In this document: piece by piece, positions 1,398 to 2,900 of the stretch | Numbering within the stretch: the first letter of the stretch is position 1 | Layout: each line of letters begins with the position of its first letter | DNA from: a virus | Lineage: Duplodnaviria; Heunggongvirae; Uroviricota; Caudoviricetes | Length of the DNA: 44,479 bases | Virus record (IMG/VR): IMGVR_UViG_2526164662_000049 | Reading direction: 5' to 3' (one strand) | Translations under genes and position numbers: made by a program | The notes under the pieces: generated by a model | What the model saw: only the letters and a program-made list of their open reading frames with translations | Databases searched by the model: none | Told to the model about the DNA's origin: nothing

Positions 1398-1651
1398 TCA
1401 TTTATCTCCGACTGGAAACTTCTTATACAAAGTCGATACGCCAACATCATAAATGATCGCCACCTTCTGGCGAGGAACGCCTGATGCAATTAATCGCCCG
1501 GCCTGCGCCCATTGTTCATCTGTTAGGTTTGGCCTACGGCTACCTATCCAACCTCCAGTGAGTGCTCAGCTAATCCCGCCTGCGTTCGCTCAACAATCAT
1601 TTCCCTTTCCATTTTGTCCAATTGTCCCCAGTACATCATGGAGAGCCCCAT
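1398..1651 (-). pseudogene. truncated, frameshifted serine DNA invertase (Pin/Gin family, C-terminal half only)
   Basis: two frames give MEREMIVERTQAGLAEH and IGSRRPNLTDEQWAQAGRLIASGVPRQKVAIIYDVGVSTLYKKFPVGDK, matching invertase C-terminal HTH; N-terminal catalytic half absent. Confidence 0.6.
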
Positions 1652-1809
1652 TAGTGCTCTGGTATTAGTGATTTTTAATATTTGGAGTTTAGCAGATGGC
1701 ACAACCCTGATTGTGTTCCCTTCAATTGATCTATTATTTTTATCAGTTATTTAGTATGCTTACCTTATCAATTAAAGTTTCATAATTACAAAATTGGGTC
1801 AGTATATAA

Positions 1810-2610
1810 ATGAATAAAAGAAAAACGCTTTTCAATATACAAGCACTAAGGTTTATTGCTGCAGCTATGGTGGTTTTGGCACATGCCGAACTTGGACAAT
1901 ATGGCATTGGGAATATCGAAATCCTTGCATCTCTGGGAGGATTTGGCGTTATTATATTTTTCATAATTAGTGGGTTTATTATACCTTACGTAGCATATGG
2001 TGGCTCTCAATCAGAAGGAGAATTCAAAATATCTGCAGGGAACTTTTTTATGCGAAGAGTAATAAGAATAATCCCGGTATATGCTTTAATTACCGCCCTT
2101 TGCGTTCTATCAGCCTTCATAGTAAAACATTATATATCTTCCCCAACTCCACCTATTGCTTATTGGTGGCCCGAAACAAAAATCAGTCTTCAATGGTATC
2201 TTGAGAGTATTACATTCACTCACTGGCATCGCGATGCAATTCTAAGTATAGGTTGGACATTACAACTTGAATTTTTGTTTTATACTTCTTTTGCATTTTT
2301 TATTGCTATCAAATTATCAAGGTTAGAGTATATAGAGATCTTATTTTTAACTATATCCATAGTAGCTAATATTTTAACTTATCAAAATAACAGCATCATA
2401 TTCGAAATTCTTCCGTTCATGAAAACACTGGCAAGACCAGAAATGGTCGTATTTGCTATGGGTATGTTTATGTATCGATTATACTTACTGGGCGCTATGT
2501 TAAAAAAAACAATTGCGCTTACAATATTAACTTTGTTTATTCCCACATTCTTATTATGTGAATACTTTAATATTACAACAAACATGGGGGGGAATGGCAT
2601 CGTCCTTTGA
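1810..2610 (+). CDS. membrane acyltransferase family 3 (O-antigen acetylase-like), N-terminal 266 aa; interrupted at poly-G
   Basis: multi-TM ORF, strongly AT-rich; acyltransferase_3-like N-terminus (RFIAAAMVVLAHA); ends 18 nt after a 7-G run. Confidence 0.75.
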   Translation: MNKRKTLFNIQALRFIAAAMVVLAHAELGQYGIGNIEILASLGGFGVIIFFIISGFIIPYVAYGGSQSEGEFKISAGNFFMRRVIRIIPVYALITALCVLSAFIVKHYISSPTPPIAYWWPETKISLQWYLESITFTHWHRDAILSIGWTLQLEFLFYTSFAFFIAIKLSRLEYIEILFLTISIVANILTYQNNSIIFEILPFMKTLARPEMVVFAMGMFMYRLYLLGAMLKKTIALTILTLFIPTFLLCEYFNITTNMGGNGIVL

Positions 2611-2900
2611 TATGGGGGTTTTTCGCTTTTTATGGTGTCTGGGCAGCGTTGAGCCTTGAAGGTAAAATAAAACCGGCTAAACTTATTATTTTCCTCGGTG
2701 ATGCTTCATATAGTATATATTTGACGCATGGTTTGATTACAGCTTGGGTATCATATATGTTTGTGTCTTTCGGACTTATTGATTATTCCAATGTATTTCT
2801 ATATATTGGAATATACTTTATAATAAGTTGTGCGCCTGGCAGCGTCATTCATATGTACATAGAAAAACCCATCGCAGAATTTTTAAAACGTTTTGTTTGA
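2607..2900 (+). CDS. acyltransferase C-terminal fragment in shifted frame
   Basis: 97 aa hydrophobic ORF (TTG start in track) contiguous with upstream ORF; a +1 G in the 2586-2592 tract would fuse both into about 360 aa. Confidence 0.45.
   Translation: MIWGFFAFYGVWAALSLEGKIKPAKLIIFLGDASYSIYLTHGLITAWVSYMFVSFGLIDYSNVFLYIGIYFIISCAPGSVIHMYIEKPIAEFLKRFV

What the first reader, a model, noticed from the sequence alone, without database searches (positions are those of the whole stretch)
1398..2900. Truncated DNA invertase next to the acyltransferase: remnant of a tail-fibre shufflon replaced by cargo
Downstream of fibre and fibre-assembly genes, Mu/P1/e14-type phages carry an invertible segment with alternative fibre ends and a Gin/Pin invertase. 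Here only the C-terminal half of the invertase survives, frameshifted, and the place of the alternative fibre genes is occupied by an oppositely oriented AT-rich acyltransferase. This points to a cargo insertion that destroyed host-range switching.
Basis: partly seen in the sequence, partly recalled or inferred. Interest (0 to 1): 0.45.

Follow-up and report, generated by a model that had tools for sequence, protein, structure and literature searches.

The report
Dead fibre-switch invertase beside acyltransferase cargo
At the end of an E. coli prophage, the DNA switch that lets related phages alternate between two tail-fibre tips has been reduced to a broken gene fragment and its place taken by a foreign sugar-acetylating membrane enzyme gene, an ordinary kind of prophage decay and cargo gain that has happened more than once at this spot.

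Summary
A decayed Pin-type serine-invertase fragment lies on the minus strand at 1398-~1768. It covers residues ~66-184 of 184, with at least two frameshifts and in-frame stops. Its catalytic N-terminus is missing. A low-GC (34%) AT3 acyltransferase gene follows on the plus strand (1810-2900), convergent with the tail-fibre assembly and fibre genes.

A related prophage at the same pphA-yebY site (E. coli E9) has an intact pinE, an alternative fibre tip and chaperone, and two e14-type crossover repeats.

Three refinements apply.
- The event is old and did not happen in this prophage. The block 1326-4573 is 99% identical in six other E. coli genomes with different prophage backbones and loci. 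The pin-acyltransferase-tfa junctions also occur in Citrobacter at 88% identity.
- An unrelated AT3 gene occupies the same slot, with a different pin breakpoint, in 66 E. coli genomes including E. coli B.
- The window's acyltransferase is itself broken by a one-base loss in a G8 run.

This is an ordinary mosaic prophage cargo locus of modest interest.

The parts
277..936 (-). pphA (serine/threonine phosphatase), the host gene flanking the prophage
   Evidence: Pfam Metallophos E 1.7e-15. Annotated pphA in matching E. coli genomes and present in 5426 of 5426 genomes.
1070..1094 (.). Prophage attachment-site core; its partner lies at about 43882-43903, next to the integrase (42669-43745) and yebY
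   Evidence: Shared core ACGATTCCTGT with flanking similarity. Integrase by Pfam. yebY at the far end. The same 33-bp sequence flanks the Citrobacter remnant island twice.
1398..1768 (-). Decayed Pin-type serine DNA invertase pseudogene, residues ~66-184 of 184. Three reading frames are needed, with shifts near 1575 and 1688 and in-frame stops. The catalytic N-terminus, promoter and 5' end are missing. Bases 1398-1517 are 100% identical to intact pinE of strain E9, and the rest is strongly diverged.
   Evidence: Identity to E9. PGAP marks the identical copies 'frameshifted; incomplete; missing N-terminus'.
1810..2900 (+). AT3-only membrane acyltransferase gene (363 aa when intact). Here it is split into ORFs 1810-2610 and 2607-2900 by a -1 frameshift.
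   Evidence: Pfam PF01757 91.4 bits against a cutoff of 31. PHROG 3333 'O-acetyltransferase' E 9e-82. Split ORFs.
2586..2592 (+). G7 homopolymer where all other E. coli copies have G8; the site of the frameshift
   Evidence: Pairwise and multiple DNA alignments.
2953..2981 (.). 12-bp-stem hairpin in the 228-bp spacer between the convergent acyltransferase and tfa genes; terminator-like on the minus strand
   Evidence: Consensus scan only. Function not shown.
3129..3716 (-). Tail fibre assembly (chaperone) gene, complete
   Evidence: Pfam Caudo_TAP E 1.6e-32. PHROG 105 E 4e-75.
3716..4864 (-). Tail fibre gene, one intact 382-aa ORF. The N-terminal ~120 aa are shared with E9. The C-terminal part is shared only with the six acyltransferase-carrying genomes.
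   Evidence: PHROG 3100 tail fibre E 7e-90. tblastn of the E9 fibre, residues 1-128, 91% identity. Distribution.
4495..4520 (.). Residual crossover site GTCCGTTAAATC-AA-GGTTTTCGAGAG. The outer (constant-side) half and the centre are identical to E9's site TTCTCCCAAACC-AA-GGTTTTCGAGAG. The inner half matches at only 6 of 12 positions.
   Evidence: Sequence reads. E9 inverted repeats. Multi-genome alignment. e14 P-segment repeats as published in PMC12529663.
4503..4573 (.). 70-bp conserved linker on the constant side of the crossover site; the right-hand mosaic junction of the imported block. The left junction lies at about 1494-1517 inside the pin 3' end.
   Evidence: Homology limits against L001 and L002. 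Mismatch map. Matched in 907 genomes. Alignment.

Best explanation
The window holds a ~42.8-kb prophage integrated between pphA and yebY. The ancestor of its tail-fibre end carried a standard Pin/Gin-type host-range switch. That switch consisted of an invertase gene, two inverted 26-bp crossover sites (one inside the fibre gene), and a second fibre tip plus chaperone in the opposite orientation.

In an old event, one deletion/replacement or a deletion followed by an insertion removed several parts. These were the first ~66 codons of the invertase with its promoter, the invertase-proximal crossover site, and the alternative fibre tip and chaperone. About 1.36 kb of low-GC foreign DNA encoding an AT3-only membrane acyltransferase took their place.

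The fibre is therefore locked in one form. There is no recombinase, only one degenerate site, and nothing to swap. The leftover invertase fragment has since decayed.

The resulting block (pin fragment, acyltransferase, tfa, fibre tip) then spread between unrelated prophage backbones by homologous recombination. The recombination used two conserved linkers, the 3' end of pin and the 70 bp next to the fibre crossover site. This prophage acquired the block that way.

By inference from family membership and position, the acyltransferase acetylates a surface polysaccharide of the lysogen, most likely O-antigen. That would alter phage adsorption and serotype, as Oac of Sf6 and Oac1b do. In this particular window the gene reads as off, or dead, because of a one-base loss in a G8 run.

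Shown: the anatomy, the homologies, the breakpoints, the distribution and purifying selection on the gene. Inferred: the order of events, the substrate and the phenotype.
For: - **Intact comparator at the same locus.** E9 has pinE, an alternative tail protein, tfaE, tfa and fibre, with inverted repeats AAACGTTGGTTTGGGAGAAG / CTTCTCCCAAACCAAGGTTT. These are identical to the experimentally inverted e14 P-segment repeats (PMC12529663).
- **Collinearity.** The window is collinear with E9 outside 1615-4502.
- **Pin fragment.** It is homologous to the invertase but lacks residues 1-65 and is frameshifted.
- **No switch parts left.** Only a half crossover site remains, and neither repeat is found within 3 mismatches. 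No remnant of the alternative tfa or fibre tip lies between 1769 and 3128.
- **Foreign origin.** GC is 0.34 against 0.48.
- **Mosaic spread.** The block 1326-4573 is 99.2% identical in 6 of 5426 complete E. coli genomes. These are Mu/e14-type or DUF2612-type prophages at ykgR or argW loci.
- **Age of the junctions.** The same junctions occur in a 4.3-kb att-flanked remnant at the pphA locus of Citrobacter meridianamericanus (88% DNA identity). They also occur in a pgl-ybhA island (81%).
- **A working gene elsewhere.** Codon-position identity is 95/97.5/84% and 89/95/70% for positions 1/2/3. The AT3 motifs R14-x10-H25, FFxISGF and R83xxR86 are invariant. These motifs are described as functionally required in PMC7448272.
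- **Cargo position is typical.** Relatives at 60-65% identity sit convergent with tailspike genes in other prophages. Oac1b sits beside a tail-fibre gene in a myovirus-type prophage (PMC3630932).
Against: - No experiment links this acyltransferase to any substrate. It has no close homolog in deposited phage genomes: one hit at 27% identity, and Sf6 Oac not found at E<=1e-5.
- No convincing promoter was found upstream.
- The window's copy is frameshifted, so in this genome it may do nothing. The G7 run could equally be a sequencing or assembly error.
- No relative was found that has this same fibre tip and tfa together with an intact invertible segment. The ancestral state of this particular block is therefore inferred from the pin fragment and the half site, not observed.
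Confidence: 0.8

Rival explanations
1. Two-step history. The invertible segment first decayed by spontaneous deletion, as commonly happens in prophages. The acyltransferase landed later in an already dead locus, so the cargo did not destroy switching.
For: Strain R1, at the same locus, has pin cut at residue ~151 and fragments of both tfa genes but no acyltransferase. About one in ten matches to the pin 3' end in a spread sample are annotated as truncated HTH pseudogenes.
Against: In all three diverged lineages of this block the pin breakpoint lies about 41 bp from the acyltransferase start codon, with no intervening remnant of the alternative genes. That is what a single replacement predicts. 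It does not exclude two steps.
Confidence: 0.25
2. The G7/G8 run is a slipped-strand on/off switch, so the acyltransferase is phase-variable. The window would then show the 'off' state rather than a dead gene.
For: The frameshift lies exactly in an 8-G homopolymer. O-antigen modification genes are often phase-variable (PMC9558356, for oafB).
Against: Five of the six E. coli copies compared at this position are G8 and only the window is G7. Relatives in Citrobacter-like and other lineages interrupt the run (GGGGGGTG, GGGAGGTG, GGGCGGTG), so the tract is not conserved. Known enterobacterial phase variation of such genes is epigenetic rather than homopolymer-based. Homopolymer errors are a common sequencing artefact.
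Confidence: 0.1
3. The surviving invertase fragment still has a role. It could act as a small HTH DNA-binding protein, or as the promoter and 5' leader of the acyltransferase.
For: The 151 bp upstream of the acyltransferase (decayed pin) is retained in all three lineages. One of these is L012, where the homology stops about 150 bp upstream of the acyltransferase and the 3' part of pin is not found. This stretch is slightly more conserved than synonymous sites: 88% against 84%, and 77% against 70%.
Against: The HTH reading frame has no start codon and no ORF of 30 aa or more. The excess conservation is within sampling noise for 150 sites. No sigma-70-like promoter passed the scan between 1700 and 1809.
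Confidence: 0.15
4. Assembly artefact: the junctions are a chimeric misassembly of two prophages.
For: The exact combination in the window, pphA flank plus this block, is absent from 5426 complete E. coli genomes.
Against: Both junctions lie in long stretches of shared homology, as expected for natural recombination. The internal pin-acyltransferase-tfa junctions are reproduced in six complete genomes, in Citrobacter and in metagenome contigs. ERP001 has the same block on the same DUF2612-type backbone.
Confidence: 0.03

Closest known systems
e14 P segment / PinE (and Mu G-Gin, P1 C-Cin) invertible tail-fibre segments
   Same: The fragment is 82-100% identical to PinE over its C-terminal 60 residues. 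The fibre gene keeps the outer half-site and centre of the e14-type crossover site. The gene order (fibre, tfa, invertase at the prophage end) matches, and a sister prophage at the same att site has the complete system.
   Different: The catalytic domain, promoter, second crossover site and alternative fibre tip and chaperone are all missing. The gene is frameshifted, so the system cannot invert, even if a Pin enzyme is supplied in trans.
Prophage-borne AT3-only O-antigen acetyltransferases (Oac of Sf6, Oac1b, OacD of SfII, PhiV10 Oac)
   Same: The Pfam family (PF01757) and AT3-only architecture of about 330-360 aa are the same. The R/K-x10-H, FFxISG and RxxR motifs are present. The gene is a low-GC cargo gene at the receptor-binding-protein end of a prophage, and oac1b likewise lies next to a tail-fibre gene in a myovirus-type prophage.
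   Different: There is no detectable close similarity to the phage enzymes in INPHARED. The substrate is unknown. The gene occupies the slot of an invertible segment rather than the int-tailspike junction, and this copy is frameshifted.
Second 'pin remnant + AT3 + tfa' module of E. coli B/REL606, IAI39 and mouse strain 8178
   Same: The architecture, orientation and low GC (0.32) are identical. In strain 8178 it sits in the same prophage type at the same pphA site.
   Different: The acyltransferase is only 25% identical. Pin is cut at about residue 130-138 rather than about 66. The tfa is different and the spacer to it is 41 bp rather than 228 bp. This is an independent capture, or a later cargo swap.
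R64-type shufflon (Rci tyrosine recombinase)
   Same: Both are DNA-rearrangement systems that vary the tip of an adhesin.
   Different: The recombinase here is a serine invertase of the Din family, and intact relatives have a single invertible segment with two sites.

Membership tests
Din-family serine DNA invertase (Pin/Gin/Cin/Hin) | C-terminal HTH_7 DNA-binding domain | tested here: met
   Pfam PF02796 E 8.8e-13, 48.6 bits against a cutoff of 23.8. 82% identity to PinE residues 125-184.
Din-family serine DNA invertase (Pin/Gin/Cin/Hin) | N-terminal catalytic (Resolvase) domain with the Ser nucleophile near residue 9-10 | tested here: not met
   No Resolvase hit. Similarity starts at about residue 66 at best. 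tblastn finds nothing for residues 1-65 anywhere in the window.
Din-family serine DNA invertase (Pin/Gin/Cin/Hin) | Uninterrupted reading frame | tested here: not met
   Three frames are needed and in-frame stops are present. PGAP flags identical copies as frameshifted and incomplete.
Invertible tail-fibre segment (G/P/C type) | Two crossover sites in inverted orientation flanking the segment | tested here: not met
   No match to either e14/E9 repeat within 3 mismatches. Only one site remains, with one good half, at 4495-4520.
Invertible tail-fibre segment (G/P/C type) | Alternative fibre C-terminus and chaperone in opposite orientation | tested here: not met
   tblastn with the E9 alternative tail protein and with both Tfa proteins hits only the resident genes at 3129-4213.
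Invertible tail-fibre segment (G/P/C type) | Fis-dependent enhancer in the 5' part of the invertase gene (established knowledge for Gin/Hin/Cin) | not testable with these tools
   The 5' third of the gene, where the enhancer lies in known systems, is deleted. No direct test was run.
AT3 acyltransferase (PF01757) | Full-length match to the Acyl_transf_3 profile above the gathering score | tested here: met
   91.4 bits against a cutoff of 31, profile positions 3-324 of 326, using the G8 (intact) allele.
AT3 acyltransferase (PF01757) | R/K-x10-H in TMH1, FFxISG in TMH2 and RxxR motifs (PMC7448272) | tested here: met
   R14...H25, F50-F51-x-I-S54-G55-F56 and R83-V-I-R86 are invariant across 8 relatives of 47-100% identity.
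AT3 acyltransferase (PF01757) | Intact ORF in this window | tested here: not met
   G7 against G8 splits the gene at codon ~260. At least 30 invariant residues lie downstream of the shift.
Serotype-converting / superinfection-excluding O-antigen acetylase (Oac-like) | Demonstrated acetylation of O-antigen and altered phage adsorption or serotype | not testable with these tools
   Only family membership, cargo position next to receptor-binding genes and purifying selection are available.
R64-type shufflon | Rci tyrosine recombinase and multiple sfx repeats giving multiple inversions | tested here: not met
   The recombinase remnant is a serine invertase. The intact relative has two repeats and one segment.

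The most novel reading that the evidence does not exclude
The invertase and alternative-fibre slot at the end of enterobacterial myovirus-type prophages may be a recurrent capture site for AT3 acyltransferases. The phage would give up its own host-range switch and the lysogen would gain a surface-glycan modification. That modification is then kept under selection even after the rest of the prophage has decayed.

Evidence in hand:
- Two unrelated AT3 genes with different pin breakpoints occupy the slot, in 6 and 66 of 5426 E. coli genomes.
- The gene is retained in a 4.3-kb att-flanked Citrobacter remnant, in E. coli B and in a pgl-ybhA island.
- The strong excess of identity at codon positions 1 and 2 over position 3 indicates purifying selection.

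A further possibility is that the decayed invertase fragment now supplies the acyltransferase promoter, and that the G8 run gives on/off switching.
Probability: 0.3. Interest if true: 0.45.

Novelty: new member of a known kind. Interest (0 to 1): 0.25.

Why it matters
The locus is a clean, datable example of how temperate-phage tail-fibre ends evolve. A programmed host-range switch is lost, a host-benefiting cargo gene is gained, and the block then moves between prophage backbones through short conserved linkers at the crossover site and the invertase 3' end.

Practical points:
- This prophage has a fixed adsorption specificity.
- Short 'helix-turn-helix domain protein' pseudogenes next to tail-fibre genes are invertase relics.
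- An uncharacterised AT3 acyltransferase family in E. coli and Citrobacter, and a second one in E. coli B/BL21, are candidates for surface-polysaccharide acetylation. Such acetylation could affect serotyping, phage therapy host range and vaccine epitopes.

None of this changes current concepts.

Tried and rejected
- **Second crossover site.** I searched the window for the 20-mer and 16-mer e14/E9 repeats with up to 3 mismatches and found nothing. The loose core AAACCNNGGTTT gave 24 matches against 24 expected by chance, and only the one at 4503 is meaningful.
- **Relics of the alternative fibre tip or tfa.** None were found in 1769-3128 by tblastn.
- **An intact-switch relative with the same fibre tip and tfa.** None exists in 5426 E. 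coli genomes. That fibre tip occurs only with the acyltransferase.
- **Close homologs in deposited phage genomes.** There were none: a single 27% hit in a Psychrobacillus phage.
- **Flanking homology with the 60-65% relatives.** Similarity stops at the CDS, so they are not informative for the endpoints.
- **A promoter for the acyltransferase.** The consensus scan found none between 1700 and 1809. There is a single GATC upstream, so no gtr-like Dam/OxyR signature is evident (by eye).
- **The HTH fragment as an expressed ORF.** Rejected, because there is no start codon.
- **The 22-nt inverted repeat 1849-1870 / 4675-4696.** It encodes FIAAA in both genes with the same codons. One arm lies outside the mobile block, so I treated it as coincidence and did not follow it.
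- **Literature.** Searches for this arrangement (acyltransferase, tail fibre, invertase, prophage) found no paper describing it.
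Full report
**What is in the window**

The window is a stretch of E. coli chromosome from pphA (277-936, minus strand) to yebY (from 44138). A prophage of about 42.8 kb lies between them.
- pphA and yebY are found in all 5426 complete E. coli genomes searched.
- The prophage carries a lambda-type integrase at 42669-43745 and a Rac-like recE/recT/ydaT early region.
- It has a myovirus-type tail and baseplate, including DUF3383, baseplate J and DUF2612 proteins.
- A short att core is repeated at about 1070-1094 and 43882-43903.

The finding concerns the first genes inside the pphA-proximal prophage end.

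**The observation checked**

On the minus strand, three reading frames between 1398 and about 1768 together spell the C-terminal two thirds of a Pin-type serine invertase.
- The last 60 residues (1580-1398) are 82% identical to PinE of E. coli E9. Residues 95-127 (1666-1571) follow in another frame.
- The stitched translation hits Pfam HTH_7 (E 8.8e-13) and the PHROG 'DNA invertase' family (E 1.9e-17).
- Alignment with a Citrobacter copy shows that a third frame (1764-1690, 'GKHTK*LIKIIDQLKGTQSGLCHLL') continues the homology back to the conserved LG(R) motif near residue 66.
- There is no Resolvase-domain hit. Nothing corresponds to residues 1-65, and there is no other serine recombinase in the window.
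- The HTH frame has no start codon.

The fragment is therefore a dead relic.

About 41 bp beyond it, on the plus strand, starts an AT3 acyltransferase gene (1810-2900).
- Its intact form, as found in other genomes, matches Pfam Acyl_transf_3 end to end (91 bits, cutoff 31) and PHROG 'O-acetyltransferase' (E 9e-82).
- GC is 0.34, against 0.48 for the prophage.
- It is convergent with the tail-fibre assembly gene (3129-3716) and the fibre gene (3716-4864).
- The two convergent genes are separated by a 228-bp spacer holding a 12-bp-stem hairpin.

In this window the acyltransferase is itself split into 266-aa and 97-aa ORFs. The window has a G7 run at about 2586-2592 where five other E. coli copies have G8. 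More distant relatives interrupt the run. More than thirty residues that are invariant in the family lie downstream of the shift. This copy therefore reads as inactive, unless the G7 is a sequencing error or a slipped-strand 'off' state.

**Comparison with an intact relative**

E. coli E9 carries the same prophage type at the same pphA site. Reading away from pphA, it has:
- pinE (184 aa, intact);
- a crossover repeat;
- an alternative fibre C-terminus and tfaE on the opposite strand;
- tfa and the fibre gene;
- the second crossover repeat inside the fibre gene.

Its repeats are AAACGTTGGTTTGGGAGAAG and CTTCTCCCAAACCAAGGTTT. They are those of the e14 P segment, whose inversion by PinE/PinQ/PinR has been shown experimentally (PMC12529663).

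The window is collinear with E9 at 1-1614 and from 4503 onward. Only the stretch between differs.

At the fibre junction the window reads GTCCGTTAAATC-AA-GGTTTTCGAGAG, and E9 reads TTCTCCCAAACC-AA-GGTTTTCGAGAG.
- The outer half-site and the central AA are identical.
- The inner half-site matches at only 6 of 12 positions.
- Neither repeat occurs anywhere in the window within three mismatches.
- No relic of an alternative tfa or fibre tip lies between the pin fragment and tfa.

The parts missing relative to E9 are pin codons 1 to ~65 with its promoter region, the pin-proximal crossover site, and the alternative fibre tip and chaperone. In their place are about 1.36 kb of low-GC DNA. The switch cannot work, even with a Pin enzyme supplied in trans.

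**History of the block**

The event did not happen in this prophage.
- Window 1326-4573 is 99.2% identical to a block in 6 of 5426 complete E. coli genomes.
- There it sits in Mu/e14-type (ymfQ, gp46, gp45) or DUF2612-type prophages, next to ykgR or at the argW/intS site.
- All those copies have the same frameshifted pin fragment.

The left mosaic junction lies inside the pin 3' end.
- Bases 900-1517 are 100% identical to E9.
- The differences from the ST69 copy cluster at 1329-1493.
- Beyond 1517 the fragment is far more diverged from any intact pinE.

The right junction is the 70-bp conserved stretch 4503-4573, on the constant side of the crossover site. It is shared even by fibre genes with unrelated N-termini and matched in 907 genomes.

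The junctions themselves are old.
- Citrobacter meridianamericanus BR102 has, at its own pphA locus, a 4.3-kb island flanked by the same att sequence.
- The island consists of a more decayed pin fragment (residues 66-180), the acyltransferase (93% aa identity, 88% DNA identity over window 1508-3364) and a tfa fragment.
- A metagenome contig carries window 1659-3245 at 81% identity between pgl and ybhA, again with a tfa 3' fragment.

Across these lineages, codon positions 1, 2 and 3 are 95/97.5/84% and 89/95/70% identical. The gene has therefore been under purifying selection while the phage around it decayed.

**Recurrence**

Mouse E. coli 8178 has the same prophage type at the same site.
- Pin is cut at about residue 130-138.
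- It is followed by a different AT3 gene (25% identical, GC 0.32) in the same orientation, then a different tfa.
- That second module is present in 66 of 5426 genomes, including E. coli B REL606/BL21 and IAI39.

Strain R1 shows a third outcome, with pin cut at about residue 151, tfa fragments and no cargo. In a spread sample of matches to the pin 3' end, roughly one in ten is annotated as a truncated HTH pseudogene. Decay of this switch is therefore common, and AT3 genes have filled the slot at least twice.

**Likely function of the cargo**

The protein is an AT3-only membrane acyltransferase. It carries the R/K-x10-H, FFxISG and RxxR motifs that mutagenesis of OafA and Oac showed to be required.

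Relatives at 60-65% identity sit convergent with tailspike genes in other prophages. One lies between intS and a GDSL-esterase tailspike at argW. Another lies between the lysis genes and a pectate-lyase-type tailspike.

Prophage-borne AT3-only enzymes are the known precedent. Examples are Oac of Sf6, OacD, the PhiV10 enzyme, and Oac1b, which lies beside a tail-fibre gene in a myovirus-type prophage. These enzymes acetylate O-antigen and block superinfection.

The best inference is acetylation of a surface polysaccharide of the lysogen, most likely O-antigen. The substrate is untested, there is no close homolog among deposited phages, and no convincing promoter was found.

**Verdict**

- 'Shufflon' is a misnomer.
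- The relic is about two thirds of the gene, with at least two frameshifts.
- The replacement is ancient and was imported as a mosaic block.
- The cargo is frameshifted in this genome.

The locus is a new example of two well-known processes, decay of a Din-type invertible segment and gain of a lysogenic-conversion-type gene. I found no paper describing this particular arrangement. The recurrent capture of unrelated AT3 genes in the same slot, and their retention in prophage remnants across genera, is the most interesting aspect. A systematic survey of that pattern would be worthwhile.

Noticed in passing
window 2586-2592: The acyltransferase 'cargo' is itself frameshifted. The window has G7 where five other E. 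coli copies have G8, giving ORFs of 266 and 97 aa. This could be a real inactivation, a slipped-strand off state or a homopolymer sequencing error.
   Followed up: partly
window 1849-1870 and 4675-4696: A 22-nt inverted repeat (20 of 22 bases) links the acyltransferase 5' end and the fibre gene 5' region. Both arms encode F-I-A-A-A with identical codons. It is rarer than chance by a rough estimate, but one arm lies outside the mobile block, so it is probably coincidence.
   Followed up: no
window 1070-1094 and 43882-43903: Likely att core repeats (…GACCGAA[C/T]ACGATTCCTGT…) of a ~42.8-kb prophage between pphA and yebY. The prophage combines a Rac-like recE/recT/ydaT early region and a lambda-type integrase with a myovirus-type tail module.
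   Followed up: partly
L015 4499-5863 (E. coli 8178); L017 (REL606); L018 (IAI39): A second, unrelated AT3 acyltransferase (25% identity, GC 0.32) occupies the same slot with pin cut at about residue 130-138. It is present in 66 of 5426 E. coli genomes, including the laboratory B strains. REL606 has yet another AT3 gene about 2 kb away, near ybhB.
   Followed up: partly
L019 4363-8712 (Citrobacter meridianamericanus BR102): A 4.3-kb att-flanked prophage remnant at the Citrobacter pphA locus retains little more than the decayed pin fragment, an intact acyltransferase (93% aa identity) and a tfa fragment. This suggests the cargo gene has been kept while the phage was lost.
   Followed up: partly
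window 1659-1809: The decayed middle part of pin, just upstream of the acyltransferase, is retained in all three diverged lineages. It is slightly more conserved than synonymous sites: 88% against 84%, and 77% against 70%. It may now serve as promoter or leader, but the difference is not statistically convincing.
   Followed up: partly
window 1067-1390: This prophage-end stretch matches the end of the deposited 'Actinobacillus phage vB_Apl-pPE4' record at 91% identity. Its last 65 bp match the ends of many Stx-converting phage records at 89%. It therefore appears to be a conserved terminal segment shared by diverse enterobacterial prophages.
   Followed up: no
L005-L008 6001-9704: A 60%-identical acyltransferase sits between intS and a tailspike with an N-terminal tailspike domain plus a GDSL/SGNH esterase domain. 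A prophage thus pairs an acetyltransferase with a probable glycan deacetylase on its receptor-binding protein.
   Followed up: no
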